Shown: one piece after another, positions 1 to 40,286 of the stretch | Position numbering within the stretch: the stretch's first letter is position 1 | How the letters are laid out: each line of letters starts with the position of its first letter | From: Lytechinus pictus | Taxonomy: Eukaryota | Assembly: GCF_037042905.1 (NCBI RefSeq) | Contig: NC_087251.1 | Location: 37,264,001 to 37,328,000, forward strand | DNA: 64,000 bases | Direction: 5' to 3' | Translations under genes and position numbers: made by a program | Notes under the pieces: model-generated | The model's input: the letters and a program-made list of their open reading frames with translations, nothing else | What the model was told of the DNA's origin: nothing | Database searches by the model: none

Positions 1-63
1 ACTTGTTATTTAGTATTTTACTATATGAAATTATGTTTATCCAAATTTTGTCTTCCAAGAACT

Positions 64-707
64 AAACAAGTGAAATGCCTCTGGCAGTCTCACCTGCATC
101 ACGCGATTCAATATAGCAGCAGTGCTGACTTTGAAACCTACTATAACTCCCACAAAATGTTCAGTGATACTTGGTTACTCTTATGTCCAAGTTTCATGAA
201 TCAGATCCATAAACTTTCAAAGTTATGATGGTAATTCAACAAATACCCCCAATTCGGCCAAAGTTCATTGACCCTAAATGACCTTTGACCTTGGTCATGT
301 GACGTGAACTCATGCAGGATGTTCAGTGATACTTGATTAACCTTATGTCCAAGTTTCATGAACTAGGTCCATACATTTTCTAAGTTATGATGACATTTCA
401 AAAACTTAATCTTAGGTTAAGATTTTGATGTTGATTCCCCTAACATGGTCTAGGTTCATTGACCCTAAATTACCTTTGACCTTGGTCATGTGACATGAAT
501 CTCAGACAGGATGTTCAGTAATACTTGATTAACCTTATAGCCAAGTTTCATGAACTAGGTCCATATACTTTCTAAGTTATGCTGTCATATCAAAAACTTA
601 ACCTTAGGTTAACCTTAGGTTAAGATTTGATGTTGACACCGCTGCCGCCGCCGCCGTCGGAAAAGCGGCGCCTATAGTCTCATACTGCTTTGCAGGTGAG
701 ACAAAAA
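64..707 (+). mobile_element. Helentron-associated (HINE/pearl-like) non-autonomous element, family A
   Basis: 5' gtctcacctgca matches 3' tgcaggtgagac (subterminal inverted repeat); internal tandem units with tgacctttgacct; (GCC)n; 3' hairpin; A-rich ends without TSD. Confidence 0.75.
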
Positions 708-1131
708 TAGATTGACAAGTGATTTAATGCTTTGATCTAATTATTTCAATTAATAATTAAATTTTATAGATATTTATTGCTGCAACTTATCTTATTATAT
801 GGGAGACATACACACATCATTGAAAATATGAAGTAATTATGACATCATGTAATAACATAAGAAAACGAAAAGCGAGGATGTGACAACATCAGCCAACCTA
901 ATGAAGATTCATGACAATGTAAATATAACTGTTTTCCCAAAATATTGATGAATTTTAGTCAGTTACCTGATTTTGATGAAATTTTCAGTATTTTGCTCGG
1001 TGAATTTTACTCTATTTATTTTGATATAAAAATTTTCTCATTCCGGAGTACCCCTTTAATGGTATCTCTGTCATTCATGATGACTTTCCGGTAAAGCAAA
1101 CTCAAAGTTTGAATTGTCTAATATCATTTCA

Positions 1132-1317
<186 letters not shown>

Positions 1318-4110
1318 TCAATCAAAATTCCTCCAAAGACGAAAAACAAAATTTTGACTAACTGACATACAACTTAGATATTTCATTTTCATTATGATGG
1401 GTCATGACCTAGGGCTACCTTAATTTTATGATGCTTTGAACATACAGACTTTGTAGTTTTTTTCCATTATAGTAATCCTAATAATGTGATATCATATCAT
1501 TCTAAAAGTCTAATATTTGGATACATTTAAATAAAACATTTTTTTTATATTTCTGCTTATAACTTCTTCCAATGCCTGTTCTAAGCATAGGTAAAGGGCC
1601 TGTAACATGAATTAGACTTGAGTATCATTCCGTTAGAGTTTGAATGTGGCATCTAGTGCCCTCTTTCCGCAATGTTTCTATATTTACTCAAAATATGCCT
1701 TTGAGCACTTACTTTGATGATTGAGTAATTGGATATTAGAAAGCTACTGACAGATTATATCCTGAAATTTTCAACAAATTACACACTTGAGAAGGGATTT
1801 TATTTATTTTTTTTAAACACACTTATTTTATTTTGATGGGGCACCCGATAAAATTGAATTTGATGTAAAATCATTATATCAATTAAATAAAACAATTTTT
1901 ATTTCATATCCTTCACATCATGTTTTATAATTAAATGCACTTTTACTAAGATTTACCAAAACTAAAGATGCTTTAAAGGATTGGTGGTTAAAAAAAGAAA
2001 TTTGAAATAATTGACTAAAAAAACACTTGGATATTGTATATTAAACAAAGAGACAAGATTTCTTATAACATATAATAATAATAGAATTAGTGAAAAATAT
2101 TTTTAGAAGTTTGATTTTTAAGAAATTCATTGTATTGTAATTCATGTGTCACAAAGTAGACCTGAAGTGCCGAGCTTCCTCAACACAGATCTACGCTTCT
2201 GGTAGTTCTGCCACAATCATCACATATATAATCTGGTTTATAGTCCTTAATTACTTCACGAAGATTACTCTCCTATCTCTTTGTTTCCTTTCTATTTCCC
2301 TTCCTTTCACTGTCATGATGGTCCAAACAGTCCTTTTCAGGATTACCCACATGGTGAACCATAGGCAGCCTCTTCTATGTTGTCATCATGCAAACTTTCA
2401 AAGATCATCCCAAAACACTTAGTACCGGTATTTAAAATTAATCACCATAGCAACCTAGCTTTTGTATGTCCAGACATATTGTAATTCTGGACACAAAGAA
2501 TTTTTTTTTTTAATATCAATGCAATATTTTATTTAAAATATTATATTTTTTATAAACAATGACTCTCTATCAACAAAGTTCATAATTAAAAAAAAAATAA
2601 TAATAAAATCACCATAAAATTCACCTTGCAATGAGTATTGTTGCCATCATTGTGTGTTACCACGGGTGCCGACTTTCTACAAATGCACCACCCAATGTCC
2701 TCGTATACGGTTAGTGCTTTTGTCAGTCACCTACGAGGTCAATATGATCTCCATAAATACCCAGGTTCACGGTGAACCGTAAACCTTCTCCATGTTATAA
2801 ACTCCACCATGCAAACCTAAAAAGATCATCTGAGGTCAATACTGTTATGTTGATCAGTAAATCGGAGTAATATGAAGTAAAACAATACACCAGACGGTGG
2901 ACTGTGCTGTTTCCAGAAGAAGAAGGGGGAATCACTTCCCCTTTCATATTACTCAGATTGACTGATCAACATTTGTCAAAATTATCTGGTCACCTAATCA
3001 CTTGCATCAACCTTTGTTTATTTGGTGAGGTGAATTTTTTTTAGGGATATAGATAAAATTCAGTCAAATTAAGTTCCACAATTAAAAATTACACATCATT
3101 ACATTTTACATGTCATGATAGCCCAACAAAAACTCAAGTTAAAATAACAATGTCGTGTCTGGTCAGGCTTAACTAAACAAATTCAAAAACAAAATTTCTA
3201 CCCATGCAGGAGTTGGGAGCAATTGATTTGTGTATTTTGAAGAGAATGTGTAGTATGGTTGGAACTACCCCTTATCGACCACCTAATCTTCTAAGCATCA
3301 TATCTGCGAAAATATTCATCAATTTTACCCAGTTTTCGTCTCATTTGTGCAGAAAATTGAGCAGATCAGATTCCCATGTTTCGCTCGGCGACTCCGATTC
3401 AATTTGCGTATATATCGACGATCAACGAATGCGACGATTTTCCATTTGCTCATTTGCACCCGTCTTTTGAAACCGACCACCCGCGGTACACTAAGTTTAC
3501 GGCCGATTCTTGTCGCGGTGGCGAAATATTTTTACTCTTTCAAATAAGTTCTATGACGTCAACATGCTAAATGATCGCCTCACTACTTCTACTGCGAGCT
3601 CCAACGCATGATTCGACGATTGACGACGGATATTTGTTCTAAAGCCGTTTCCTATCGGATTTCTTGGTTTTTCAGCGGGTTTTGGGTTTGGTCAATACAA
3701 TTTTGGTTAATTCTACTAAATTTTTACTTTTTGTTGCTTCTTTTTTTCTCGTAAAATCGATTCTTACCGTTTCTATGGACACTGCGCCTACTCCCGCGCG
3801 TATCGTTTGTAATACGCAATAATTTTAACGCGCGCAAGGTGGTCGGTTTCAAAAGAGGTGGTCGATATGTGGTGGTCTTACCATACTCCACGAAGCCAGA
3901 CGTATCAGCTAAATCATGGTTGATTTTTTTTTTAACCCCAGCTCCCAGGCCCAGGAACTCTAGCTCCGGGGACTCTGCCTCAGTCAAGGAACTCCTTGCC
4001 TGCCAGCAGACCTGGGCCGGTTGATGAGCGATCATGGAGCTATCCCCGAAAAAGAATGAACGTAACAACACAATTATTACACTTTTTTTGGCTAATCTAC
4101 GAAACGGTAC

Positions 4111-4175
4111 CTTATCAGGTCCATATTACATGACCCTACGATAACGACATCGACTTGACATTTCTTTAGGCTCAT
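4111..4175 (-). CDS. RBKS: Ribokinase, coding exon 1
   Basis: ATG at 4175 gives MSLKKCQVDVVIVGSCNMDLI(S), the PfkB/ribokinase N-terminal VVIVGSCNMDL motif. GT donor at 4110-4109, phase 2, matches the next exon. Confidence 0.92.
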
Positions 4176-4836
4176 TTCTGATGTTTATTCTCGAAGCTGC
4201 AACAGAAACTTGACAGATTTACTGCGCTGGAGCTGTTCACGTGATTGTCTTTATGGAGGACCAGCTGCAAACATATAACGATTCCACGGCGCAGGCGAAC
4301 GAATTCTGTGCCGGAGAGTCTGGCTAAAGAATGGGTCGACATTTCGTTACCCGTCGTTAGCGCCCTTGCAGCTTTGCCTTTAGCTAGCTGCGATACGAGG
4401 GTAAAATTATTGTCTATTCTAGATTAATTATTTGAATGTTATTTTGGATCCTCTGTAATCAGGAAAAATTAGATAGTTAAATAATAATGAATAATTTTCT
4501 TAATCTTAATTCATATCATTATCAAAATGTATTATGCTATACGATAATTATTGCATGCATTTTTATTTCAAGGTACAAGTAATAAGACTATGTTGTGAGT
4601 CTCGTGTTTATATTGCGTAATAAGTAGGCGGGGCCGGGGTTTAAGACCGGAAAATCCGCCGTTTCGGATTTTGTTTTATTAACATTCTCTGACGATCGTC
4701 TCAACGCAACAACACATCCTGACCCAAATGTACTGATTTTTCGGTCTTGGCCGGGGTTCAACAGCATTTGTACGATAAAGTCAATATTAGCAAAGTGTGC
4801 TTGAAAACATTAAAGACCGAAACAAACTTACAACAT

Positions 4837-5803
4837 AACAAGTGGAATGCCTCTGGCCGTCTCACCTGCATCACGCGATTCAATATAGCAGCAGTGCTGA
4901 TTTTGAAAACTACTATAACTCGCACAAGATGTTCAGTGATACTTGGTTACTCTTATTTCCACGTTTTATGAACTAGACCAATACACTTATAGAGATATGA
5001 TGGCAATTCAACAAATACCCCCAACGTGGCCAAAGTTCTTTGACCTTACATGACCTTTGACCTTGATCATGTGACCTGAAACTCGCACAGGATGTTCAGT
5101 GATACTTGATTACTATTATGTCCAAGTTTTATGAACTAGACCAACACACTTTCAAATTTATGGCTGTAATTCAACAAATACCCCAATTTGGCCAAAGTTC
5201 ATTGACCCTAAATGACCTTTGACCTTGATCATGTGACCTGAAACTTGCACAGGATGTTCAGTAATACTTGATTACTATTATGTCCAAGTTTCATGAATCA
5301 GATCCATAAACTTTTAAAGTTATGATGGTAATTCAACAGATACCCCCAATTCGGCCAAAGTTCATTGACCCTAAATGACCTTTGACCTTGGTCATGTGAT
5401 GTGAAACTCATGCAGGATGTTCAGTGATACTTGATTAACCTTATGTATAAGTTTCATGAACTAGGTCCATATATTTTCTAAGTTATGATGACATTTCAAA
5501 AACTTAACCTTAGGTTAAGATTTTGATGTTGATTCCCCCAACATGGTCTAAGTTCATTGACCCTAAATGACCTTTGACCTTGGTCATGTGACATGAAACT
5601 CATGCAGGATGTTCAGTAATACTTGATTAACCTTATGGCCAAGTTTCATGAACTAGGTCCATATACTTTCTAAGTTATGCTGTCATTTCAAAAACTTAAC
5701 CTCAGGTTAAGATTTGGTGTTGACGCCGCCGCCGCCGTCGCCGTCGCCGCCGCCGTCGGAAAAGCGGCGCCTATAGTCTCACTCTGCTATGCAGGTGAGA
5801 CAA
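4837..5803 (+). mobile_element. HINE-like element family A, four internal tandem units
   Basis: Same termini as 64-707; units begin near 5040, 5203, 5365 and 5557. Confidence 0.78.
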
Positions 5804-6329
5804 TAAAACAAGTCAACATGCAGGGTGGAGGTATATTCTCAATTTTCTTCTTTTCTCCTAGCTCTTTCCGTCTCTTTTTTTAAAAGGGGGTCATATAGGG
5901 CGGTCACCCCCAGTCCAGTGGCGTAAAGCCGGGCTTGGCATGGGGGGCAGTTTGAGAGTTAAACAAAATGCCGCCGGAAAATGAACGGAGAAGAGAGAAG
6001 GAAAGAAAAGGAAGGGAGAAAGTTAAAGAGAGAAGAGGAACTCAGCGGAAAAAAAAAAGAAAGAAAAGGAAAGTGAAAGAAAATGAAGAAAAAGTGGAGA
6101 GGAAAAACGAAAAGGGACAGAAATGAGGAGGGGAAGGAGGAAAGAGAAAAGTCAAAAGGGGAACAAAAATATATAGTTATAGTGATATATGCAAATGAGA
6201 GAGTCGATGAAATCACCATTTATGTGTAGTAGGACCTACTGTTTGAATTATCACATCATTTCATTTTGTTTGCAGATTTAACAATAACGAGACTCTTCAT
6301 TAAATCACAATAAGATATCACAGTTCGAT

Positions 6330-6408
6330 CGGGGAGGAATCAGACCAGACAGACGGACGGATTCCGAGCGTGATACCATACGTCCCGTATATGACGGGCG
6401 TATAAAAA
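6330..6408 (+). mobile_element. 3' end of a third HINE-like family
   Basis: (GACG/GACA)n followed by hairpin atacgtcccgt-atat-gacgggcgtat and an A run. Confidence 0.5.
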
Positions 6409-7316
6409 GGAAACAGAAAGAGTTTTTTTTTATTGAATAAAAGAATATATTTCAAGCGTCCTTATGGGTGAAAATTACGTTGAAACGTCTGTGATGTCAT
6501 TAATATGTTAATTATTACGTAAATGGTGAGTTCAAAGCACAATCAGGGCGTGGTCATTGCGTAATAAAGAGAACCGCAAATGCAGTATGGGTTTAGGCGC
6601 ATTACATTGTGAATGCGCTTGCATAAATTTAACGCGCATTCGTCTTTGTTGGCCCTGGATACTGCAACGTCAACAAACCACATTCTCTTGCAATTTGCTT
6701 TTTGAGAACCTACTGTCAATATTTTTTGGCGATTTTCGAATATTTTCAAACCTCTCCAAGTCTTGCATCCTAATTGCCGGGTAAGTATATCATCACTAGA
6801 TAACAATGAAAAGACTGAACAAGTTTGAAATAATTTCTAACAATAATTTTTCAGTTATCAAGATAAAAACTTAAAAAGACAAGGTTATTTTTCACTGAAG
6901 AGAATGTCAGAATCCCAGACTCGGTGACAGATTACCAGGGGGGGGGGGGTGAATATTTGGACACAGTGCAGTGTTCAGCTCATAAATTCTGCAAGATATA
7001 TTAATTGAAAATGGGAATTGTTGATGAAAGCTCTTCGTATCCCAAGAAGGCCTATAATTTCAAAAAGATCAGTTTATGAATATTATTATAGCAATTCTGT
7101 GTATTTCCATTATATTTTCCTTTTTGCAAAAGGGTGGGGTGGGAAATTTACAGGGAATTGGTTTTCGGCATGAAAATAAGGACTTTCTCTGCAATTCTGT
7201 GTGTTTCCATTATATTTTCCTTTATCCCTTCTTTCCTACACTTGTTCTTACTTTCCGTTACCGTACCGTAGATCGGTAAGTTTCTATTTTCTATCACTTG
7301 GAAACAACGTTTGGCG

Positions 7317-10300
7317 ATGTATTGCGTTGGACGCATTCGACCTCCATACCCCTGGGTCCTTGGTAGGCCGCTGCCCTGCTGCGTCGGGCAAGCTTCTCCT
7401 GTTGCCATCAAACCACCAATGGTTACCTCTATAGATGTAAGCTCTGATGTAATAAACACACACCCACTCACTCACAGGCCTTTTCACCTAATAATGATAT
7501 CTGGGGAGTGTTTCATGAAAGTTGTCAGCACTGACTAAATTGTCAGTGCTGACAATTTCAGTGAAATCATTGGTTTTGATTGGCTATGAGGCACTTGCCT
7601 CTGACTGTTACTATTGACTTGTAACTGTCGGAGAAAGCTAACTTGTCAGTGCTAACAACTTTCATGAAACGCTCCCCAGATGGAAAGGAATGAGAACCGG
7701 CCCCCCCCCCCCTCCAAAATAAAATGTCAAAAACGCAAATATGCGTTAACAAAAACAAACTTCAAATATATAACAATGCTGATGAGGTTCCTTTGATCTT
7801 TCATCCCCCATTTCAACCATTTTTACTACTACTACTACCACTACTACTACTACTATTACTACTACTTCTACTACTACTACTACTACTATTACTACTACTA
7901 AAAGTAATAATACAAAAATAAATAATGATAATACTATAACTACTTTGTAATACCAGATAAAGTTGTCAACTTTAATTCTTCCCTTGAAGTGAAGATGAAT
8001 TGAGATGTTATGATGCTTTATGCATAGAGTGAAAGTTGTAAATCTGTCTGTTGCATCATGAAAGTAATATCTGTTTTGATAGATGTCTAATTTTATTTTA
8101 CTATTAATATATTTCTTGGCATAACTCATTAAACCAAGATGATATGATAATTAAAAAAAAACAAGATTATATGATACTACTACTACTAAATCATCCTTAT
8201 TATTGACACTTTTTGTCATGAGATGCATCATACACACCTAAAGGGTGTTTAATAAAGCTGTTCGTAAGTTAAGAGCGACTTTAAGAACGACTTGTGATCC
8301 TTTCTTATGCGCTAAATAATCACCAACATATAATGGTGAACATCATTTACCACAAGAAAGGATCACCAGTCGTTCTTAACTTACGAACAGCTTTATGAAA
8401 CGGGCCCCTGTGCTCTGTCCTTGTGTGCCTTTAATGGCTCCATCTCTCTGCCCCCTTCCCTCTCTTTCCTCTTTTCTTTCTGTCTCTTTGCCTGCATCTC
8501 TCTCTCTTTCCCATGATTTTGCTCTTCTCATCTTTTCTGACTTTTTTTTACAACCCTGCACCCCAATCCAGCTTCTAGGTTTCATTTATTATCAAGACAA
8601 CCGTTTTCCATGTTTAATCATTTTTTTTTCATCTTTCCATGATTACACAAACAGAAGCTGTGTTGGTCTTACGAGGATCCATTTATCTTCACCCACCCTA
8701 CTCCACCAGCCAATCAGCTCACAGGAAAACTCCTTCTCGAATGCCTCAAGAACTCACAGAAAAGGCAACTTGAGGAACAGCTTCTTGTAAGTCTTTAAGA
8801 TTAGAATTTATTATGGATATCTTAAATTATATTACTAGTATACAAATTTTACAATTTTCTATATGATAAATTAGCGAAATGAGTTGAATATCGTATGATA
8901 TTAATATGATTCTACCAAGTGCCTGGACGAAAATGAACACTTAAAACCTCCCACGTCAATGAATTCCATGGAATTAAATTCAAGTGACTTCTATTCACTA
9001 ATTCCATGTCAAACATGTGAGATACACTCTAAAAATGCAATTAAAAATGTTAAGCATTTTGTATAAGCTTGTCACTCTCACAACTATTATTTTAACTTGT
9101 TGTTTAAACTCTGAAACAAGTTGTTTGAACCTTTAAAAAAAATTGTTTAAAATGTGATTAATTTTTTTAAAGTTTAAATTGTTGTTAATTGAGTGTTAGG
9201 CTTAAACAACATGCTTGAAATTTTAAACAGCATTTTTACAGAGTAAATCTTATTGATACTAGTACTTGCCTTAGAGATAGAGTGTAAAATTGATTCTTTA
9301 TAGAGGAAGATATTTATCATGACATATTTCTTCATCAGAGACTGTGACACAATAATTATTTCAATCAATGACACAAACCATGATTCATGTCATGTGTAAT
9401 ATTATGTTTTCACCCCCAAAAGTCTTAGGAGATCCAGGGAAATACTGCTTGTGAAGTTATACAATGGGCATACTGAACAAACATACAGAGAAACCTGGCT
9501 GGGTATCATGAGTGTTAAAACTTTGAAGCTATATCTGAAAAAATTTGGAATGTTATATAAACAAAATAAAAAGCCGATTAATATGTAGAATAATTCAAAC
9601 ATCTGGATTGATTATGCATTAAATGAATGGGTATTGAAACACAGTGTAGCTGAATAAATGTTTTCAATATGGTGGTTAATAAACAAAAATCGTTTTCAAC
9701 AATTATCCATAATTTATTTTAGAAAGTTATTGTTACTGGTGATGTAATTTCATATTGAATTCTATCTATCATGATTGTAACAGAGCCTGGCATCAGAGCT
9801 TGGAGACAGAGTTGGAGCTGGTGGTGATCTCTCTCAGCTTGTGGATGACATCAGCAGTGAAGTCCATGAAGCCGAGGAGAGACGGCTGGTCGCTGACAAG
9901 AGGGCTCGGGCCATCGAGCAGAAGAACGTCGATGCTGCCATGAAGATCCAAGTCCTGGAAATGGAGCTGGCCGAGGCCAGACGACAGCGAGATTCTGCTG
10001 TCCAGCAACTCCAGGTAAATAAATGTTTGTATTGATCTAACGACAGTAACTGCATTGGATACTTGCACAGCAACTTGATTAATCAACAGGATCCTATGGA
10101 AGCCTGTCAGGGCTTAGAAGGTCAAGATGAGCCAAAAAGAACCTTATTAATTTCATATTGGTTTCAATCACAAAATCAATCTTAATTTCGAAGGATGTAA
10201 AATTTGTAAGATGACTAATTTCATACATACATGTATATGCATCTATTCAGGGCTTGACTTGGCAACCAGCTCTAGCCTCTCCTGTTGTCAGCCAGACTGC

Positions 10301-13300
10301 TCCTGTCACTTGGTAAGAGTTTGGCTTAATCAAGTGATCCAATACTCTTTCCTCTAATAGTTATTTATTTCTTAACCTGAGAATCATGTTGATTTCTGGT
10401 ACAGTTCATTTATTCTGAAGATGTGTAAGCAAAGAGACTTATAAGTAACAACAACTTACATAAATTAATTAAATGAAATAAAGATAAGATAATTATGGAA
10501 GAGCAAAATCCATTAAAACAGCTCTATGCCAATATGTAGTACATGTATACTCAATACAGAACTTTTTAAAAGATATCAACATAATCAGTAAAATTTTTGA
10601 AATTTCAGTTTCCCTGAGGGTACACAACAAACACCTCCCTTAGAGCCATCTGACATTCGAGTAGCATCCAGCCCTCCCCCTTCACCAGACCTTCCCTTTA
10701 CACCAGCACCGTATCCCACCACTACACTAGACACAGCACTCATTGACACCTTAGCTGTGCCCTCTGGGTAAGAATGAGGTGGGAGTCGGTATGAGACCTG
10801 AAAGAATTCAGTATAAATTATTTGTAATTTGAAACTTGTAGCTTTCTTATACATGATAATAAACATGACAATTCAAAGAAAAAAAAGATAAAGATTTGTT
10901 GTAAAAAAATTATCAATGGCACCTTATGAAGATGTGTTTTTTATTTTTCCCTCAAATTATCATCTCCTTCTTTTGCAGACAACCAAGATCTACTAGCCCA
11001 GACGTTAGTGATTTGGTGTCAGAAGTCAACGACCTTCCTCCTCTTGCCATCCCTTCTGCTCCGGCCTCGGTGACCATCTTTTCTTCACCACTCCCAAGCC
11101 CACGGTAAGTGTGTTGAAACATTACTCTAACAGTTGATTAAAACCCTGATTAAAAAAACCTAAAGGTAATAATATACCCAGGTAAGGTGAATGGGTACCT
11201 TCCATGAAATGCGTGTGCGCTGTAATCTTAGTAATTACGGCTGCCAAGCTACAGCTGGGGTAATAATATCCAAGTCCTTTGGAAGCGCATAGGGACATTA
11301 TTCATAATGTGATATGCGCTATACAAGAACTGTATATTATTATTATTATACAACTAAGAGAGGGTTTTAATTTTTTGGTATGTCTGGTACAGGGGCCGCG
11401 GAACCGGGGGGCTGGGGGGGCTTCAGCCCCCCACTTTTTTCCAAAACCGTGTACAAAAACTTAAAATTGACCATATGATTGTGATTTTTAGCATGGTCAG
11501 CCCCCCCACTTTGAAAACCGTTCCGCGGCCCCTGTGGTAGTTTTTTTCCTGTATTCTTTTCTGCTTACTTTCAGGAACCTAAATGAATCAAGTCAAGATA
11601 GCTATCAACATTTGATGTTACCCCACCAAGGAATAACGTTCATACATCAGGTTGAAATGAGATTTCACAAACCATCCTGAACCACACTCAAAAGTTTCTG
11701 CATATTTATCTTCCTAGATCACCATCAGTGGGCGGGGTTGTAGCCACCACGAGCCAGAGCACAGCAGCTGCCCAAGTCACCTCCTCCTTGGTGTGGAGCA
11801 TGGACTACCTCAAGCCCTTCCATCCAGGAGGTGGGGATGTCATCCTGGGCAGCGGGGTCAGCGCTACTGTCCAACTCTTCAGGCACAAGGTTACCAACGA
11901 GCCCATAGCTGTCAAGATCTTCAAACTCCCTGATGACATCCAGGAGATGAACGAGAAGGTTGGTGTATTGGTCATTTTTCATCACTCCCCAAATTCGTAG
12001 TCAATTTGAATTATGGTAAATTTTTATATTAACAAGAATGGCGTTCATTCGTAACAGGGTAATCTAATTTTGGGGAGTTCTACTGCAACCAAAGAAGTTC
12101 AACAAAAGACATACTGAAAGCATCTTACAGATCAATTTTTACACTGGGAAGAACAGAGACAGACAATATAATGTGTCACAAACTAAAACTTGATCTTAAC
12201 TTCTTTACTGTTGACAGATGGGCCACATTGCCGAGGAAGCCGGCCTCCTTGACATCATAGGTGGTAAAAACTGCTTCCCAAGCTACCTGGGCTGCCTTGA
12301 GACAAGCCTGGGCTACGTCGGCCTGGCTATGGAGTTCGTCGGTGACCCGGCCACCGGAGAGTCTTGGACTTTGGCACGAGGTATGCGAGAGCTAGTGTTG
12401 AGTACCAAAGAGTGGTAAGTACCTCTTTTTCACTTCAACAACAAATTACAAATGCTAAAAGGACCATGAATACTCTAGAAAAATTACAATCTGTAGCTTG
12501 AAAGACAACTTCAAGATCCTTTAAAATTGCTAGTTGAAAAGCTGGAATGCATCAATGAAACTTAATTTTTCTAGAGTGATCATGTAGGCCTACATGTACA
12601 TGTATGGGTTAAACTCCATAGAATTTTTCAAGTAGTGTCTTTTCCAAGATTCTTCCAAATTCAAATAAATGACTTCCAGTATCCTCTTCTGCTTTGTTTC
12701 AGGTATCAGCTAGCTCTCGACATCACCATCTCCCTTGGTCAGATGCATGGGATGGGATACCTCATGAACGACCTCAAGGAGGACAACTGCCTCCTAAGGA
12801 AGACCCAGACGGGTCGTTGGGAGGCGGTGATCGTTGACTTCGGGCTGGTCTTCCCACAGGCATCTCCTTTCTTTTGCTATCTTTCTCACCAGGAAAAAGA
12901 GAAGTATAGGAGAAAGGTAAGTATGGTCTTCACTCTGAGTGTCAGATTCAAGTGACAGCTGCTAGTGTTTAAACTTAATACTTTCAATGAATAATATTGC
13001 TTATATATATGAAGGCAATATTGTCATTAACAACTTTTGGTAGGAGGTGAGCCTTGAGGTATGTGGATCAGCTGAAAACAGGTATCCTAACTGTAACATG
13101 TTAGTAATTTGAAGTTCCACATTCATACAGGTGATCATATTGATCAGACTGCCTGAAGATGAGTCTTTCTTATTTCTATAATGAAGCCTGCAAAAAGTAC
13201 TAAAATATTAAGTATAGTATTAGTTGCTAGAGCCAAAGACAGGGTAATAATATCCAAAGTGCTACAGACTTCAGCTGATAGACAGTGTTATCCGAGAATG

Positions 13301-13629
13301 GCGTAATTGTTATCAACATAACAATCTTTATCTTATTCTGTCACTTTCTTAGTAATACAGTGTTGCAAGTTTTAAAAGTCTGGATTGTTTCTTTGTTTTT
13401 AAACTAACAGGAGATCTACACGCACATCGCTCCGGAGTGCACCCTCGACGATCAGGGCACCACCATCATGAGCGATGTCTTCCAGCTTGGACGTGTCCTG
13501 AAGTTGATGGGGGTCGCAGCTGCCTACGACGACGAGCTCAATTTCATCGGCACCGTCTGTACGCAGAAATCTCCCCTCAACCGAATGACCATCAAAGAAA
13601 TCATTGAATACTTTGAGTGTTTGATGTAG
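7317..13629 (+). CDS. Atypical protein kinase (~566 aa): N-terminal coiled coil, Pro/Ser/Thr-rich linker, C-terminal kinase domain; 10 exons
   Basis: Exons 7317-7436, 8655-8786, 9784-10014, 10251-10312, 10609-10767, 10979-11104, 11718-11958, 12218-12414, 12703-12916, 13411-13629 join with GT-AG introns and consistent phases (1701 nt, no internal stop). Motifs: LGSGVSATV (Gly loop), IAVK, EEAGLL (alphaC), YLMNDLKEDN (catalytic loop), VDFG, HIAPE, SDVFQLG, terminal R (NRMT). The first exon is the least certain. Confidence 0.88.
7501..7679. mobile_element. Foldback MITE
   Basis: TIRs ctggggagtgtttcatgaaagttgtcagcactgac / gtcagtgctaacaactttcatgaaacgctccccag. Confidence 0.8.
7823..7900. repeat. 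(ACT)n microsatellite
   Basis: Imperfect trinucleotide run. Confidence 0.95.
8241..8410. mobile_element. Foldback MITE
   Basis: Inverted arms ataaagctgttcgtaagttaagagcgact / agtcgttcttaacttacgaacagctttat. Confidence 0.75.
9023..9245. mobile_element. AT-rich MITE with CACT-like terminus
   Basis: tacactctaaaaatgc ... gcatttttacagagta. Confidence 0.55.
11175..11350 (+). mobile_element. 5'-truncated tRNA-derived SINE
   Basis: Shares acccaggt..gaatgggtac and gctacagctggggtaataata with the SINE at 21060-21345; (TAT)n tail. Confidence 0.7.
11390..11534. mobile_element. MITE with CAGGGG TIRs and 5-bp TSD (hAT5-like)
   Basis: caggggccgcggaac ... gttccgcggcccctg, flanked by TGGTA at 11385-11389 and 11535-11539. 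Confidence 0.8.
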
Positions 13630-14889
13630 ACAGGCAATGTATTGGAAAGGATGTTTAGAAAACAAACATTTTCCTATTTCGACTTCTGAAGTTCAGTTCA
13701 AATGTGGTTTTACTTCTCATATATATCAAAACCAACATTAAATTTCAATACAGCAAAAGATGTAGAAATTACAGAATCCGGATGGATGCATAGCTCATTG
13801 GTATAATTTACATACTTAAACAAATTATTCAAAATGATTATAGGGATATATGCAAAGTTACCAAAGTAGCTAGGGAGGGGTAAAAAAATGCCAAAGGAAA
13901 TCAATTTCTGTAATGCTTTAATCATAAATAATATATCCTTTTTGTAGTACCATAAAGTAAAAACTTGGCAGCAGAAAAAAATGGAAAATTAATAATCACA
14001 ACTGAACAGTCCATGCAAATATGAGACAATTCTTCTATTCTTTGAAACATGAAAATAAAAATAATTCTGCATCTTTTGAAATTGTGGTAAAAACATCTTT
14101 TCTAAATACATTGTCTGGGTAAGTATTTGTAAATATTTTTACATTTATTTGTTTCACCTTAATTACTGCGAAAAATGCAGTCAAACCGGAAATCAAAGGC
14201 ATGGCATAATGGTGTGTCGTCAGAAATAAAATAACAAAACCAACCAAAACGGAAAACTGGAGGTTTGGAGAATAATGATTATATTTCATTTCAATGACAG
14301 CCTGCCATTAAATAAAATGTGCTGACAATCCAAAATTATGAAGAAATACAAGAATTTGGTACCATAAACAAAACTGAAAGTTGCAACATGAAACTGCAGT
14401 AGACAATAAACATTTATATATATTTTTTTTATCTATCTCTCATTAACAACATAGAAAATGGTGGGGAAATAAAAGAGGAAACACGCTTCATGACTGTTTA
14501 ATGCACTTTCAAAATTGATCTAGAAAAATAAAAACTGGATTGCTTGAAAAATGGAGATGGAAAAATCGTTCAATCGAAGGTAGACCATCACAGTGCAGAG
14601 CGGGGCGGGGCTCTACACAAAATTTGTGTTCATATCATGAAAAATTTGAAAACATTTAATATCTGTATTCTGAACTTGCTTTATTTTAAAGGGGGAATTA
14701 ATCAGATCAATTGACACTCGAGCCATTTATCACTGGGAATAACTAAAATAGTTTTCTATGATTTTTTATATACATTTTTCAGCTTTCCATATAAAATAAG
14801 CACGGAGTAAAAACATCTGGTTGTAAGAATACAAGCCTAACACTTTCATTATCAATTGATCTTATTATGTGAACTCAAAAGGGAATAAG

Positions 14890-15665
14890 AAGTGGCATAT
14901 AGATGAAGGGGGGGGGGGCATATGATCATATTAACCACTGGCATCTAGATGAAGGGGGGGGGGGCATGATCATATTAACCACTGGCATATAGATGAGGGG
15001 GGGGGGCATATTATTAACATATACTAGTAGATGAAGGGGGGGCATACCGTATCAACCACTGGCATAGAGATGAAGGGGGGGCATATGATCAGATTAACCA
15101 CTGGCGTATAGATAGAGGGGGGGGCTTGATCATATTAACCACTGGCATATAGACGAAGGGGGCATGATCATATTAACCACTGGCGTATAGATAGGGGGGG
15201 GCTTGATCATATTAATCACTGGCATATAGACGAAGGGGGCATGATCATATTAACCACTAGCGTATAGATAGAGGGGGGCATGATCATATTAACCACTGGC
15301 ATATAGACGAAGGGGGCATGATCATATTAACCACTGGCGTATAGATAGGGGGGGGCTTGATCATATCAACCACTAGCGTATAGATAGAGGGGGGCATGAT
15401 CAGATTAACCACTGGCATATAGACGAAGGGGGCATGATCATATTAACCACTGGCGTATAGATAGGGGGGGGGGGCTTGATCATATCAACCACTAGCGTAT
15501 AGATAGAGGGGGGCATGATCAGATTAACCACTGGCATATAGACGAAGGGGGCATGATCATATTAACCACTGGCGTATAGATAGGGGGGGGGGGGCTTGAT
15601 CATATCAACCACTAGCGTATAGATAGAGGGGGGCATGATCATATTAACCACTGGCGTGTAGATGG
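14890..15665. repeat. ~38-44 bp G-tract minisatellite
   Basis: About 19 units of ggc(a/g)tatagay(g/a)a-Gn-c(a/t)tgatcatattaaccact. Confidence 0.95.
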
Positions 15666-18600
15666 AGAAGGAGGTATGTTGACAGAAAGCAGTGATATGA
15701 TATCATGATCTGAAAATAATGTAAAGATCTTTCATTGGAAAAAGTCACAATTTTCGCTCTCTGGTTTGGCTTTCTCACAACTTAAAAAAAAAATTGCCCC
15801 ATTCAGTATGCAGTGCCCCTCAAAGTTTTTGGCTCATTAAGCTACTGATATTAATTCATGCAATTAAAAAATCTCATTTTATTACACATGTTAAAGAAAT
15901 TAATTGGCCCTTCAAAATCCACGAAACTTCCATAGTGCTGCAAATTAATCTTTAAAAAATGGAAAGGTGAATGAACTATTTCAAAATTAGAAACATTTAC
16001 TTCTGGTGAAATGAGAAGTATATAATTGGGGTTTTCTACTTGCAATAACTAAAAGTCAATTTTGGGTCCCCAAATCAATCAATCTTTTAATTGCAAACTT
16101 TTACTCAATTGCTGGTTTGCTTAATATGGAAACAAAAAGTTTATATTGCTACACGTTGAACTGATTGATCATTTGCAAACTTACAACAAAACTTTTTTTC
16201 TCAAATGATTGCAAATATTTATCTTGGCAGCACCCCGTATATTTCACATTAGGGTACTTAAACTTTAATGTCTTTTCCTGAGAGAAACTAAATCAGAAAA
16301 AATATAAATCTCTTAAAAATACATCATGATCTTATTAGCATTAACAAAAAGGATTATATGGTGCTACATAAAAATGAAATGGTGACCTGAACACAAGGTT
16401 CTATCCAGAGACAGTTTGGCTTAAAAAGAAATCATTCAATTCTTTTTTTAGGATAACACAAAACACAATATCAAGATGATCTACTTATTTCAAATACACT
16501 TGAAAATAAAAACTATCATCCCTAACAAAAGGGGCTTTAGATAATAGAAATGAAAATCAATTTTCTTTGCAATTTCTTACCTGCTCAGAAGTAAATATGT
16601 TCCAAAAAAAGAATGCTTGAAAGATTTAATTATCAATTGAATCTTCAAAGGTTATGTATAATGGTATTCATCACGCCCAATTATAGGCCTTTACTTCTGC
16701 ATCAATGTGAGAGGATTATATGGTGATAACAAAAAAATGAAATAGTGAGATTTCTTTAAAAAAAAAACTCTCCATGAAATAATATATTTTAAAAAATAGT
16801 GATAAGGATAAATAGTTATACATAAAGTCTCTAAGCGCTATTTTGAAAGAAATGTGGTGGACAATCGTTCATTTTATTGTAACTTTATCAAAAAAGAATG
16901 CCATGAGATTGACATGACAAAAAAAAAATGGTTTAGTTAAGATGTCTTTGATGAGAATGGACAATTGGTAGCTTTTTTTATTTTTTTATTTGTATGTAGT
17001 TGCTTTTTCATAATTGCCAATAATCTTTTTGGTACTTTCTTTTGCATTTAGTCACATCTGCCATTCAAGAGAAAAAAGAGTAAGGGTGCATCCTCCTAGC
17101 AATGCCAGAAATGCCCCCCCCCAAAAAAAAAAAACCACCACCAATGGCGACCTGATCACATGTCCCTGTGTTAGTCTCCATAGGTAGTACCCCCTGGAAT
17201 ACTGGTGGTAGGTATGGTATGATAAATAGCATAAATATATGTATAATCAAAATGACATATTCATAGTGACCCCCCCCCCCCCTTTTTTTTTTGCTTGCCA
17301 CATTTGTCATAACAAAAATGACATTCATTTTGTAGTAGAAACCTTCCTTCTTTTTTTTTTTTTTTGGGGGGGGGCTTGTCAAATTGTTAATGCACCAAAA
17401 TCACCTTCATTTTGTAGTGAAACCCTTGCAAGATTTTATTATTTATTTTTTTGGGGGGGTTGCTTTTCAATTGTTTGGTGACCAAAAAGACCTCATTTTG
17501 TAGTGAAAACTTTTTTTTTTTTTTTTTTTTTTGGGGGGGGGGGTCAAATTTAAACCAGCATCCCCTGATAAAAAAAATTGTTCCCAGGACCCTGCCTGAT
17601 AAAAAGGACTTGTCCAGATGCTTACAAGAAAATAATTCAATTCTGTTCATATGTATATAGGCTAATAACAAAAAGCTTTATATCAAGATGATCTACTTAT
17701 CTCAAAATCACTTGAAAATGAAAATTACCACTCAAAAAGGGCTTCAGATAATAGAAATGAAAATTGATTTTTTTTTTCTTTTATCAACTTGCAAACGTCA
17801 CACAAACACCTATCACCAACCAGAAGAGGATAAGTTCTACAATAGGTGCTTGAAATAATTGAAATATAAGTATAATGGTATTCATTATGCCCAATCATAG
17901 GTCTATACTCCTGTAAAAGAATTGTTCATTATGACATGCATTTCGAGAGCAATGCTCCATATTTTATTAGGGCTTGAAAATGATTGGCATAAAGAATGAT
18001 GGTGGGGGGGGGGGTAAAACAGAGTCCAATTAATAGAACATTTACAAAAACAAAATACAACAATGTAACAATCGATTTCCTAAGATGGTGAAAGACTTGA
18101 TTATTTTAGGAAATCAAGAGTTACAAGACTTGGAACTTTTTTTCACTCCTAAAACATAAATCATGGGGAGGGGGGTGTCAATGACTCAAATTTGACAAGA
18201 AATAATATTTCATGTCCATAAGACTTTTTGCCCTTTTTTTTATCAGAGGGTTAAGTTTTAAAGTCCCTACCTCAAACCAACGGCTAGTATGGTCACGGTC
18301 CATGTATAATATCAAATTAGTATCTAGAAAAAAAAATGATTGATCCAATCCTCATAGTACATTGTCAGTTTTGTTTCATTTTTTATCTTAAAAATAATGA
18401 TTTATATTGGATCAATTCCTCTTGATAATGATCATTACTATTTTGAACAAGTTCTCTCCTCTCTCTCTCTCACTCCCTCCCTCTCCATTTACGCCCTCTC
18501 CCCCTCTCTGTATCTCTGCCCCCCCCCCCCCACCTCTAGATCTCTCTCTCCCTTTCAGGAAAATCGTATTATTCACAAGTGATTATAAGCCAAGTAACTT

Positions 18601-20863
18601 AAAAGGTGTTGAAATGTTGTTATTTCATAAATAAATATATATATACATACATGTATATATATATGTATATATGAGTATGAAACATAATGAGATGATAATG
18701 AGTTATATAATGATATATAAACACAACAGTGCTTTTATTTTGAGGACGAATCTATCCAAGTGCCTATTCACTTTTATAAGTCAAATGCAGTATTATTAAC
18801 TCGAGGCTCACAGAAATATCATTCAGTTTGGTTGATAAGATTAACAAAACAATAGAGTCAAAGCTAAGAGGCTTTGAGGGGAGATGTCATCATGATCAAG
18901 CGTGCATACACATAGAAACCACTTAAATGATAGCAAAAGTAATTTGAAAAGGAATTAGAGCATGATACAGTTATCCCTTAACCAGATCTGTATATTTGTA
19001 ACCAATTCCATTTCTCTAATTACAGAGGGTCCTGAATCAGTGGAGAAATGGAAAATCCAGGGATGGCGTCCCAATCCCTGAAGAACAATTTAAATAAAAT
19101 GGAAAAAAGGACAATACATAGGATAGTGTGTAAAAAAAATTGGGGGCTACCCCTTGGCAACAAGGGGGTGATTATGCACTGAAATGATGATTTATCCTGT
19201 TTTACTTTATGCTTTAAAAATTCCTTGTCTATACAGATTATGTATTTTCAACTTGTGTAATTTGAATGTTGGATCCATCACTGATTTTCTATTACAATTC
19301 ATACATACATTACAAAGTTCCTACTAAGTACCAGTACTGTCACCTTTAAAATGAAAAAGATTTTGAAAAAATTACATGAGTCAGCACACATTAAATGCAA
19401 AATTATTATCACTTTTCTGAATTTATTTTGCCAAATATTTTTTCTGGTAATTGTTGCATTTGTTCACCATTCATTGCTTGACCCAGACTCCACTACTGGT
19501 GTTTCACACAGGTTTACGGACATGATATTAGGGAAACTTCAATATTTAACCCTCCTAAATTTGGAACTGCTAATGAAATCCATCCTGAAGAAAAATAAAT
19601 AAAAAATAAAGTCAACCCTAAAGATTTTGCTACTAGTAGTTGTTGCCAATCACTGTTTGAACACAAGAGGTCATTTTAATTCAATGGTTGAATAGCAACA
19701 AATTGATATTGATTAAAATAAATGTTCTAAAATTCACTCGTATTCTGGTATAAAGAAATGCCCCCAGATAAATCAAATATATTTTTACACAGAAGTTATT
19801 CAATAAATGAAACCCTGAAAAAAAAAAACATAAAAAAACCAAGAAATGCTTGTTTGATTTGTGGGTATTTCCTCTTTTTTGTTTGTGGTATGAATAAATA
19901 TTATTTTTTTTAACAGGTCTAGGATATTTATGCAAACTTCAACTGAACTTGAAGAACAATAAATAACATCAATTTTTTCCTGAGTATATCATTTTCTTAT
20001 AAAATCTCTATTCCCATCATCAGAAAATTTTCTGATAGACATGACAAATAAATATCAGTCTATGAAAAACCTTCCTAATTCCAACATATTTTCAAGAAAA
20101 CATTAGATTAGATGAATCTGTATTAGAGTGTACCATAGATGATCGAACATAAGCTTTTTAAGGCTTGCATTGTGGGTAACAGCACAGAAATATCCAGCCT
20201 TCACATCTCATTATCTATTATCATCACCACCTCACCTGCATCAAACCGTTCTCCCTCATCTGGTTTGCAATCCTTTTAAAGGACCTAACCAAGCACAACA
20301 AATAATACTTCTTCCTGTCTGTCTGCTTCTCCATCTATACCAATACAGACTTCTTCAATTTGTTGTTCAAACGGGTACGTCTCATGTGCCCTGGTCGTCG
20401 GTCTTCTTCACTCTGGTAAGACCTATCCAAAGTGGACCACCTTAAGACTTGCCATCTCCTCTACTTCTTCACTTTCTCCTTCCCTTTCTTCTACATCCTC
20501 ATCGGCTCCCCTGCTCTCCATGATTATTCAAGGAGTATCGCTTCTCTACCCTGCAAAAGAATACTTCAGAAGCCAGATCCCGGCCTTTGCCAATATTGTG
20601 TCTCCTCTTTCATGTCAGCGAAGTGCTTCTATCCTTGAGGGCCGAGGTCGCCAGTCTTCTTTTTTACGCTCGAACCAATCCTAAGTGGAACACACTGATT
20701 ATTCTTGGAATACCTCTTTGCCATTCCGTAAACAGATGCTGTAGATCCCCACCTTCACCGAGACAGTCTAGTCATGTCTCCCTTTCATTATTCACACAGG
20801 GATGTCCCCACTTCCAGTTAGAAAGCTGCTAGGATCCAGATCATCAGTATTCTATTTTCCTGG

Positions 20864-39050: not shown

Positions 39051-39219
39051 CTTGTCTCGGGTTTGGGTGGATGGGTCAAAGAGTCCGCTCCTCTGAGAGT
39101 GTCATCATCTCTCCTCCGAGGGTCTCCCTTTCTGTCGTGATCGGGTCGTTCTTCTCCGGTTGAATAGGAGCCATCAGTTACATCTTCTTCACTCAAAGAA
39201 TCTTCAGAATCATAGTCGT
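39051..39219 (-). CDS. WDPCP: WDPCP exon (acidic, low complexity)
   Basis: Open 169-nt exon, phase 1 to 2: DYDSEDSLSEEDVTDGSYSTGEERPDHDRKGDPRRRDDDTLRGADSLTHPPKPET. Confidence 0.8.
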
Positions 39220-39324
39220 CTGAATGGTTTTTAGAGAACAATTGTAGGATCATAAACATACTTTCCTTTCTGTCTACCAGTAAGGAAACCATACATGTTC
39301 TGAGGCCTGTCGCATAAAAGTTAT

Positions 39325-39930
39325 TGTACAATGCCTGCTTAGCTTGTTGCACGCAAGTGACGCAAGCGAATGGAATGTTGAATGTCAAACATTTGTACCA
39401 TTGTACACGTACCAACCAAAACGTATTGTACGACGCCTACTTAGCTTGTTGTACGCGAGCAAATGGGAGACCGAATGTTCTGAACATTTGTACCGTTGCA
39501 CAGTATGTACCATCCAAAATGTACCGTTGCACGGCTTTTAAGAGGTGACGTCACAATACGATTCAATTCATTGCGCTCAGTAAGAAATGAAGGTGAAATA
39601 CGCGTATAGCCTGCTGGCTAAATGTGCAATGCTGCCCGAGGTCATGTGGTTTGTGGAATTTTGCTTTCGCTTTCAATATTTTTGCTCCCTTTTCATAGAT
39701 TACTGCAGGGAAAAACTTTTTTTTCCTATTTTCGTTACATTCCAAGGTGTTGTACAATACAAATAGCGAATATTCTTATTTGCGCAATGGTGCGAGATTT
39801 CGCATAAGGTGAAAGAAAGAGACACTCTTTTCAACTCGGCTAACGCCTTGTTGAATAGAGCATCTTTCTTTCACCTCATGCAAAATCTCCATCTCGCACC
39901 ATCGCACTCGTGCCTATTTGCTATTTGTAT
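39325..39930. mobile_element. Non-autonomous element with one-sided long hairpin (Crypton-like, tentative)
   Basis: Inverted copy at 46824-47330; ~75-bp arms around an asymmetric spacer. Confidence 0.6.
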
Positions 39931-39987: not shown

Positions 39988-40275
39988 CCATCATCATCTT
40001 CACCATCATCATTGTCATTATCATCACCATCACATACATCAGCAAAATCAGCATCTTCATCATTACCATCTTCATTTTCCTCCTCCTCATTATCCTCATC
40101 ACTATCATTGTCGTCATCATCATAATCATCAACCTCTTCAACATCTTAATTAGCCTCTCATATTCACAATCATCATCATCATCATCAAATCATCTTCAGA
40201 ATCACCGTAATCATCATCATCATCATCATCATCACCATCATCATCACCACCACCATCATCTTCTTCATTATCCTC
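39988..40275. repeat. Degenerate (CAT)n microsatellite
   Basis: Imperfect trinucleotide run adjoining a WDPCP exon donor. Confidence 0.9.
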
Positions 40276-40286
40276 ACTGCACTGAC

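What the first reader, a model, noticed from the sequence alone, without database searches (positions are those of the whole stretch)
7317..13629. Intact atypical kinase with an NDLKEDN catalytic loop, coiled coil and Pro/Ser linker
Seen: ten phase-compatible exons encode an uninterrupted ~566-aa protein. The catalytic Lys, Asp, Asn, DFG and APE are retained, but the H-R of HRD is replaced by M-N, the Gly loop is GSGVSA, the activation segment is a charged FFCYLSHQEKEKYRRKEIY, and the C-lobe is very short. Established: non-RD kinases bypass activation-loop phosphorylation and are enriched in innate-immunity signalling; the HRD His belongs to the regulatory spine. Inference: an active but unclassified, probably lineage-expanded kinase that oligomerises through its coiled coil.
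Basis: partly seen in the sequence, partly recalled or inferred. Interest (0 to 1): 0.7.

Follow-up and report, generated by a model that had tools for sequence, protein, structure and literature searches.

The report
Unnamed sea-urchin kinase, transposon-linked family
This sea-urchin gene model codes for a protein kinase of a large, unnamed marine-invertebrate family that keeps every catalytic residue but lacks the usual on/off switch, so it is likely always active; relatives of the coral and anemone type sit beside transposon genes, so the family likely spread as cargo of jumping DNA.

Summary
Ten GT-AG exons give 566 aa with K343, E364, D446, N451, DFG, APE and the alphaF Asp intact. Residues 1-61 have no homologue, and no spliced read was listed. 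The gene is from a Lytechinus-type sea urchin. It is not a lone oddity. It belongs to a large unnamed family of 'HND' kinases in echinoderms, Lingula and cnidarians. In 202 members Asn replaces the HRD Arg (178), the activation segment is long (helix predicted) and helix alphaG is missing. In a 30-member echinoid clade the His site varies freely (M, I, W, Y, L, C, R, H) while N-D is invariant. The likely mechanism is a phosphorylation-independent Ser/Thr kinase that dimerises through a coiled coil (predicted 0.51, control 0.02). The new lead: cnidarian-type members are mostly intronless and often broken. In 10 of 16 contigs of 4 kb or more they lie beside CACTA transposases or a recurrent zinc-finger partner gene. 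Intron positions differ between clades, which fits a transposon-borne kinase tamed in sea urchins; no background control was possible. This copy shows some drift. The immunity link is unsupported.

The parts
7317..7436 (+). Candidate exon 1 (residues 1-40); start codon unproven
   Evidence: ATG at 7317, GC-rich island, good donor; no homologue among 239 proteins
8655..8786 (+). Exon 2 (residues 41-84); its second half is the first helix shared with paralogues
   Evidence: Profile of five paralogue N-termini hits this frame at E 0.002, best in the window; zero RNA depth in its bin
9784..10014 (+). Exon 3 (residues 85-161), predicted parallel coiled-coil dimer
   Evidence: 48-53% identical to P0006-P0008; homodimer score 0.51 vs best control 0.02; one long helix in paralogue model
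10251..11104 (+). Exons 4-6 (10251-10312, 10609-10767, 10979-11104): Pro/Ser/Thr-rich linker, which runs from residue 162 to about 300 in exon 7
   Evidence: Pro 19%, Ser 16%, Thr 12% over residues 162-300; aligned to P0003-P0008; no structure predicted in paralogue P0007
11718..11958 (+). Exon 7 (residues 277-357): end of linker, Gly loop GSGVSA, beta3 Lys343
12218..12414 (+). Exon 8 (residues 358-423): alphaC Glu364, gatekeeper Met395, hinge
12703..12916 (+). Exon 9 (residues 423-494): alphaE His438, catalytic loop MNDLKEDN, DFG, predicted activation-segment helix 485-492 with Tyr491
13411..13629 (+). Exon 10 (residues 495-566, stop): APE, alphaF Asp516, alphaH, Arg552, alphaI; no alphaG

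Best explanation
The gene model codes for an intact kinase domain of a large unnamed 'HND' family of marine invertebrates, which likely works as a constitutively active Ser/Thr kinase, is predicted to pair through an N-terminal coiled coil, and likely descends from a kinase carried by DNA transposons. Shown: all catalytic residues are present; the family exists; Asn replaces Arg family-wide; the His site is free in echinoids; the C-lobe is about 28 residues short; cnidarian-type relatives lie beside transposon genes. Predicted by models: an ePK fold without alphaG, a helix at 485-492 in the activation segment, and a parallel dimer of residues about 114-160. Inferred: (a) Met444 fills the regulatory-spine slot, held by Asp516. 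(b) Asn445 ties down the activation segment instead of binding a phosphate, as Asn140 helps to do in granulovirus PK-1. (c) The activation helix with invariant Tyr491 packs where alphaG is missing and fixes the active form, like the ASCH helix of MPSK1. (d) Control therefore comes from expression, dimerisation and location through the coiled coil and the 140-residue linker, not from loop phosphorylation. (e) The sea-urchin clade left the elements, gained introns and expanded in clusters; this copy is young and under relaxed constraint outside the catalytic core. The substrate is not known. A role in a host-element or germline conflict is my most likely guess.
For: Catalytic sites among 202 family members: D446 200, N451 201, D468 198, K343 188, E364 194, D516 183. 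In the 30-member echinoid clade each is invariant wherever aligned, including Y491 30 of 30. Lys at D+2 gives the Ser/Thr-type loop (established knowledge). AlphaFold model of P0001: pLDDT 91.8, helix in the activation segment, alphaF followed directly by alphaH and alphaI. Family median alphaF-Asp to Arg distance is 36 (n=96, range 32-40). Fold matches are generic ePKs at Z 20-23 and 17-25% identity, with no standout. An HND kinase can be constitutively active (PK-1, PMC7881018, passages), and an activation-segment helix goes with constitutive activity (MPSK1, PMC2194165, passages). Dimer model: score 0.51, best of 3 controls 0.02, runs agree in at least 89% of contacts, pLDDT at least 79; the mark was reached by 17 of 29 eukaryotic homodimers and 0 of 30 single chains, but by only 1 of 7 without an older solved relative. 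Transposon link: of 45 metagenome loci, 28 are animal-type family members; 14 have the kinase in one frame, 1 is cut by the contig end, 9 are broken by stops or frameshifts and 4 have introns. Transposase_21 lies beside the kinase in L026 and L028 (61 and 72 bits, cut-off 28.6), Mutator in L034 (79 bits) and THAP in L033. One unknown zinc-finger partner gene flanks the kinase in 8 loci, although those kinases are only 30-59% identical between groups. Four loci share about 4 kb at 81-90% DNA identity including non-coding DNA. Intron sites differ by clade: profile positions 130, 197 and 267 here; about 145 in P0010/P0138; 147 in L011/L013/L031; 143 and about 200 in L026; none in the kinase domain of P0020, P0025, P0028.
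Against: No activity data. No spliced read was listed. The RNA reads cover introns too and lie almost only first-mate-plus, which in common stranded libraries means an antisense RNA. Start codon unproven. Against a sister haplotype or species, exon 3 shows 7 non-synonymous to 3 synonymous changes among those displayed (pN/pS 0.76). The window copy has derived changes at 4 positions where all aligned close relatives agree (307, 373, 505, 562) and shares 6 more with P0001, including Gly-loop Ala326 and Met553 for Pro. No transposase or partner gene lies near this copy, no terminal repeats were found around the cnidarian-type loci, and no background rate of transposon genes in such contigs was measured. 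All transposon-linked loci fall in one cnidarian clade (95.9/100); deep nodes joining it to the echinoid clade have bootstrap 13-67, and a bacterial HND kinase (L029) joins at the base. Several loci are near duplicates, and some breaks may be assembly errors.
Confidence: 0.55

Rival explanations
1. This particular copy is a young duplicate on its way to pseudogene status. The frame is still open, but it is not properly spliced or selected, while other family members are the functional ones.
For: Exon 3 pN/pS 0.76 on 10 changes. Twelve amino-acid differences from P0001 over 262 residues, four at otherwise uniform sites. No start Met where close paralogues have one. Sparse, intron-covering, possibly antisense RNA reads and zero depth over exon 2.
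Against: Nine intact GT-AG introns and no stop in 566 codons. No catalytic residue is hit. Ten changes cannot exclude omega 0.3 (P 0.14), and the variant list was truncated. Diadema relatives have Leu at the same position and start further upstream. Only about 6% of each RNA run was read.
Confidence: 0.2
2. An ordinary ancient host gene family, expanded by tandem duplication and retroposition; intronless copies are retrocopies and the neighbouring transposon genes reflect repeat-rich genomes.
For: Named records cluster on single chromosomes (five Diadema records on one 40.4-Mb contig, five on another). Echinoderm members have no transposon context on record here. No termini were found. No background control.
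Against: The same unknown zinc-finger gene flanks kinases that are only about 30% identical. Multi-kilobase copies include non-coding flanks. Intron positions are not shared between clades, as descent from one intron-bearing parent would predict.
Confidence: 0.3
3. An innate-immune non-RD signalling kinase that oligomerises downstream of a receptor.
For: Non-RD loop; expansion in sea urchins; fast-evolving N-terminal part; predicted dimer.
Against: No receptor, death, TIR or other immune domain in 85 longer members. The plant receptor kinase P0229 falls outside the family. IRAK4, RIPK and IRAK1 score no better than other kinases. No expression data in immune cells.
Confidence: 0.15
4. A pseudokinase scaffold: loss of His and Arg plus alphaG leaves a fold that binds ATP or partners but does not phosphorylate.
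For: The spine His and the alphaG substrate platform are missing, and the third Gly is replaced.
Against: Every residue used to define pseudokinases (VAIK Lys, catalytic Asp, DFG Asp; PMC7586955 and PMC3682881, passages) is kept in 188-200 of 202 members, which is hard to explain without catalysis.
Confidence: 0.07
5. The family came from a virus (PK-1-like) or a bacterium.
For: Granulovirus PK-1 also has HND. Bacterial HND kinase L029 groups with the family at 98.5/98. Bacterial clusters rank 2-3 in the Atlas feature search.
Against: No relative in viral contigs with the single query. The four viral hits with the profile are weak (E 6e-5 to 1e-4, 40-59 residues). Baculoviral PK-1 ranks 49th among viral folds at 15% identity. 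The partner gene is absent from viral contigs. Long-branch attraction can explain L029.
Confidence: 0.1

Closest known systems
Cydia pomonella granulovirus PK-1 (PMC7881018, passages read)
   Same: HND-type catalytic loop; Asn helps to hold the activation loop; constitutively active; dimer; divergent Gly loop.
   Different: Viral; keeps the spine His; has alphaG and an acidic alphaF-alphaG insert; dimerises through alphaC, not a separate coiled coil. No special sequence or fold closeness.
NAK family, MPSK1/STK16 (PMC2194165, passages read)
   Same: Helix inserted in the C-terminal half of the activation segment that is thought to fix the active form.
   Different: MPSK1 keeps HRD, with Arg147 tying the segment. 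Its fold match (Z 20.9, rmsd 2.7, 227 aligned) is tied with many other kinases.
KRMA kinases of nematode Mavericks (bioRxiv 10.1101/2022.07.12.499685, passages read)
   Same: Kinase family carried as cargo of mobile DNA in animals, with intron-bearing members.
   Different: KRMA resemble CtkA/HipA/MavQ and start with a ubiquitin-like domain. This family has an ePK fold and, in cnidarian-type contigs, lies beside CACTA, Mutator and THAP genes.
Rhoptry kinases (PMC3682881, passages read)
   Same: Lineage-specific expansion of divergent, mostly single-exon kinases; two Eimeria subfamilies have HNDLK loops.
   Different: Secreted parasite effectors; those HNDLK subfamilies lack the Mg-binding Asn that this family keeps. 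No relationship was tested.
RefSeq LOC135154245 (Lytechinus pictus, P0001) and paralogues P0002-P0008
   Same: 95% identical kinase domain (P0001); same MND loop; same coiled coil, linker and kinase layout in P0006-P0008.
   Different: Uncharacterised or auto-named only; P0001 and P0002 are annotated as kinase-only proteins.

Membership tests
Eukaryotic protein kinase (ePK) superfamily | Bilobed fold with beta3 Lys, alphaC Glu, catalytic Asp and Asn, DFG, APE, alphaF Asp, subdomain XI Arg | tested here: met
   Pfam Pkinase 44 bits vs cut-off 31.7 for P0001
Eukaryotic protein kinase (ePK) superfamily | His-Arg before the catalytic Asp | tested here: not met
   Met444-Asn445; family His 151, Asn 178 of 202
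Eukaryotic protein kinase (ePK) superfamily | Helix alphaG between alphaF and alphaH | tested here: not met
   37 residues vs about 65; no such helix in the model
Eukaryotic protein kinase (ePK) superfamily | Phosphotransfer activity | not testable with these tools
   needs an assay
Pseudokinases | Loss of VAIK Lys, catalytic Asp or DFG Asp | tested here: not met
   K343, D446, D468 present
Non-RD pattern-recognition kinases (IRAK/Pelle/RLK; definition recalled) | No Arg before the catalytic Asp | tested here: met
Non-RD pattern-recognition kinases (IRAK/Pelle/RLK; definition recalled) | Receptor, death or other immune domain attached | tested here: not met
   none in the window's exons or in 85 longer relatives
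Non-RD pattern-recognition kinases (IRAK/Pelle/RLK; definition recalled) | Kinase domain in the IRAK/Pelle clade | tested here: inconclusive
   one plant receptor kinase falls outside the family; no animal IRAK in the tree; fold scores tied
NAK family (MPSK1, AAK1, GAK) | Helix in the activation segment | tested here: met
   predicted helix, P0001 181-188 = 485-492
NAK family (MPSK1, AAK1, GAK) | HRD Arg anchoring the activation segment | tested here: not met
   Asn445 vs Arg147 in MPSK1
Baculovirus PK-1 | HND loop with spine His | tested here: not met
   MND here; HND in 151 of 202 relatives
Baculovirus PK-1 | alphaC side-to-side dimer of the kinase domain | not tested
KRMA Maverick-cargo kinases | [quoted passage not shown] | tested here: not met
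   N-terminus helical; top fold matches are ePKs
Cargo gene of a DNA transposon (this copy) | Transposase or partner gene and terminal repeats flanking the gene | tested here: not met
   no tblastn hit of 21 neighbour proteins in the window; no long-range inverted repeat among the five longest listed for 1-20000
Cargo gene of a DNA transposon (cnidarian-type relatives) | Adjacent transposase, multi-copy flanks, broken copies | tested here: met
Cargo gene of a DNA transposon (cnidarian-type relatives) | Terminal inverted repeats and target-site duplication enclosing both genes | tested here: inconclusive
   none found in six contigs of 4.7-12.9 kb, which may be shorter than the elements

The most novel reading that the evidence does not exclude
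An undescribed animal kinase family, without alphaG and switched on by a built-in activation helix, travels as standard cargo of several DNA-transposon superfamilies together with an unknown zinc-finger gene. Sea urchins domesticated it, giving intron-rich coiled-coil kinases that gained introns independently and lost the regulatory-spine histidine at least eight ways. This would be a natural experiment on what the HRD His is for, and a case of transposons supplying a signalling enzyme to their host.
Probability: 0.35. Interest if true: 0.75.

Novelty: new variant of a known kind. Interest (0 to 1): 0.5.

Why it matters
The HRD His and Arg and helix alphaG are among the most conserved parts of protein kinases. 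A family of hundreds of sequences that keeps catalysis residues while dropping all three gives a direct test of which parts the active state needs (M444H, N445R, Y491F). If the transposon origin holds, it adds a second, unrelated kinase family moved by mobile DNA in animals, after the nematode KRMA kinases, and a clean system for intron gain after domestication. Domesticated genes were used for that question in mammals (PMC3369469 and PMC3257199, search listing only). The single gene in the window is one of many paralogues and is ordinary within its clade.

Tried and rejected
No whole genome is held, so paralogues were counted from database records only. No RNA holder was listed by the run finder. 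The four 'RNA?' runs laid (X1, X5, X6, X10) gave contigs that run through introns, so they were treated as DNA. Single-sequence PDB search: 0 hits; the family profile hit BRAF, CTR1, JAK and CDPK about equally. Viral origin: 0 loci with P0001, 4 weak loci with the profile, 0 for the partner gene. A scan of prokaryotic genomes with the profile did not run and was not repeated. Single-sequence fold of full-length P0007 was poor (pLDDT 40); only its N-terminal helices were used. A six-residue look-alike of the paralogue N-terminus in another frame of exon 1 did not rank among the 12 best profile rows and was rejected as chance. No second copy in the 64-kb window. No host gene on the minus strand spanning the locus was identified. 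The Atlas gave no name for the partner protein. EnSpm-like motifs in L021 and a polB-like motif in L013 are recalled likenesses with no Pfam hit and were not counted. The RAG1-like hit in L023 is below cut-off (E 0.005). Literature: ten searches found no description of this family or of kinases in cnidarian DNA transposons. The library lacks most subscription papers; the 2006 sea-urchin kinome paper, KinBase and Repbase (all recalled, not seen) could already list it, and no supplements were read. Earlier-findings look-ups by place, sequence and words found nothing on this family. Trees left out 69 of 286 sequences with under 190 aligned residues; the IQ-TREE run used 61 of 217.
Full report
Gene model. 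Ten exons between 7317 and 13629 on the plus strand, joined by nine GT-AG introns, give 566 residues and a stop. Exon 9 finds sea-urchin proteins at 61-97% identity. The nearest is Lytechinus pictus P0001, 95% identical over residues 305-566. L. pictus and L. variegatus P0006-P0008 align from residue 75 to the end at 44-46%, so the window is from a Lytechinus-type urchin and exons 3-10 are backed by homology. The second half of exon 2 matches the paralogue N-terminus (E 0.002). Residues 1-61 match none of 239 fetched proteins, so the start is open.

Expression. In three RNA runs read at about 6% depth, non-repeat bins from about 9170 to 13607 have depth 0-4.5, and the bins just outside have almost none. 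The reads include intron positions, lie nearly all first-mate-plus, and give no exon-exon joint among the 15 of 36 joints listed. In common stranded libraries that direction means a minus-strand RNA; no control gene was laid, so the strand is unresolved. The other runs behaved as DNA. Splicing is therefore not shown.

The family. P0001 finds 545 cluster representatives at E up to 0.001 and 100 at 1e-10. Named members come from Lytechinus, Strongylocentrotus, Diadema, Asterias, Antedon, Amphiura, Lingula, Actinia, Actinostola, Porites, Acropora and Montipora. All are uncharacterised or auto-named. Among 202 aligned members the catalytic Asp (200), Asn (201), DFG Asp (198), Lys (188), Glu (194) and alphaF Asp (183) are kept. 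The HRD Arg is Asn in 178, and the HRD His is kept in 151. The window protein sits in an MND clade of Lytechinus, Strongylocentrotus and Diadema, inside a 30-member echinoid clade (0.96; 97.3/93). In that clade the His site is M 16, I 3, W 3, Y 3, L 2, C 1, R 1, H 1, and N-D is 30 of 30. A second clade with Lingula has also lost the His. Named paralogues number at least 7 in L. pictus and 17 in D. setosum, several on one chromosome. No Pfam domain other than kinase models was found in 85 longer members, apart from one weak Striatin row and one probable fusion with PDS5.

Structure. The model of P0001 (pLDDT 91.8, pTM 0.87) is an ePK fold with a helix at 181-188 (485-492 here) inside a 36-residue activation segment. 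After alphaF it goes straight to two last helices. The alphaF Asp to Arg distance is 37, with family median 36 (n=96), against 65-67 in four of seven canonical kinases measured: alphaG is absent family-wide. Foldseek and VIA-align give generic kinases with no standout (best Z 23.3, rmsd 3.0, 227 aligned). Exon 3 was predicted as a parallel homodimer: score 0.51, best control 0.02, contact agreement at least 89%, pLDDT at least 79. The mark was reached by 17 of 29 eukaryotic homodimers and 0 of 30 single chains, but by only 1 of 7 without a solved relative, so a generic coiled-coil likeness may drive the pass. A heptad shuffle test was not significant.

Mechanism. In kinases switched on by loop phosphorylation, the HRD Arg binds the phosphate (PMC3513839, passages). 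Here it is Asn, so that switch cannot work as usual. Granulovirus PK-1 has HND, uses the Asn to help hold the loop, and is constitutively active (PMC7881018, passages). MPSK1 fixes its loop with an inserted helix (PMC2194165, passages). I infer that this family combines both devices: the activation helix with Tyr491 (30 of 30 in the clade) packs where alphaG is missing, and a hydrophobic residue can then replace the spine His. Control would come from expression, pairing and location. Lys at D+2 points to Ser/Thr substrates (established knowledge). The substrate is unknown.

Origin. A profile scan of one eighth of the metagenome collection gave 45 loci. I judged 28 to be animal-type family members by profile score and base composition, and left out 14 bacterial or viral and 3 weak short loci. 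Of the 28, 14 have the kinase in one frame, 1 is cut by the contig end, 9 are broken and 4 have introns; three pairs are near duplicates. Those placed in the tree group with named anemone and coral proteins (95.9/100). Transposase_21 lies tail to tail with the kinase in L026 and L028, Mutator lies upstream in L034, and THAP and a marginal Ulp1 hit lie in L033. An unknown zinc-finger gene flanks the kinase in L010, L012, L019, L020, L023, L027, L033 and L036, with a weak RAG1-like frame in three of them. Of 16 contigs of 4 kb or more, 10 have the transposase or the partner gene. L012, L019, L020 and L036 share about 4 kb at 81-90%. Many of these kinases start with a basic stretch that the window protein lacks. 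Intron sites inside the kinase domain differ between clades, and several echinoid-clade members have none. The reading for P-numbered proteins rests on single-frame gene calls from contigs of unknown type. This fits an intronless mobile ancestor with separate intron gains. Against it: no termini were found, there is no background control, the window has no such neighbour, and the deep nodes are unresolved.

State of this copy. Of the differences displayed against a related organism, exon 3 has 7 non-synonymous and 3 synonymous (pN/pS 0.76). This rejects omega 0.2 at P 0.04 but not 0.3. Twelve residues differ from P0001, and six derived residues are shared with it, including Ala326 and Met553. 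No catalytic residue is touched. Relaxed constraint is likely; decay is possible.

Comparison and novelty. It is an ePK by fold and catalytic residues, and not a pseudokinase. It fails defining tests for NAK, PK-1 and KRMA membership while working like the first two. Kinase cargo in animal mobile DNA has a precedent in KRMA (bioRxiv 10.1101/2022.07.12.499685, passages). Ten paper searches found no account of this family, but the library lacks most subscription papers, and KinBase and Repbase were not seen. Verdict: real; a new variant of a known kind; interest 0.5, most of it from the family and its transposon link rather than from this copy.

Noticed in passing
L023:1210-2019 (-), L012:634-1143 (-), L033:8115-8765, L010:6193-7541, L027:2911-4020: Unknown conserved protein (C2H2 finger plus a domain with invariant W, H, P and a TRExxxIWWP motif) repeatedly next to HND kinases; the non-finger domain has no Pfam, PHROGs, NCBIfam or Atlas name.
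   Followed up: partly
L033:2073-9021: Cluster of Ulp1-like protease, RAG1-like frame, kinase, zinc-finger partner and THAP within 7 kb; may be part of one large DNA transposon.
   Followed up: partly
L029:3458-4789, L030, L032: Bacterial HND kinases; L029 groups at the base of the family in the tree (98.5/98), possibly by long-branch attraction.
   Followed up: no
window 9170-13607: RNA reads are almost all first-mate-plus and carry alleles at 9806, 9808 and 9890 that match organism B contigs rather than the window; antisense RNA, another allele or a close paralogue.
   Followed up: partly
window 7499-7681 and 8247-8401: Two high-copy elements with 34-37-nt inverted ends in intron 1, MITE-like.
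   Followed up: no
window 11173-11534: Repeat-derived stretch in intron 6 that is absent or replaced in contigs of X1, X10 and X15: a presence/absence polymorphism.
   Followed up: no
window 27594-28998 (+): Broken BED-finger transposase remnant, hAT-like by recall (zf-BED E 1.6e-8).
   Followed up: no
window 52463-54931 (-): Broken LTR-retrotransposon remnant with RNase H and integrase pieces.
   Followed up: no
window 39047-39436 and 40150-40449 (-): Two acidic, exon-like frames with no Pfam hit, possibly of another gene.
   Followed up: no
P0030 (Lingula), P0167/P0168 (Diadema): A Lingula member has three kinase domains in tandem; Diadema members have greatly extended Glu/Arg/Ala repeat helices in place of the short coiled coil.
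   Followed up: no
P0001 residue 92 (window residue 396): The nearest relative has Gly at the hinge position where the others have Glu or Asp, a hint of drift in that copy too.
   Followed up: no
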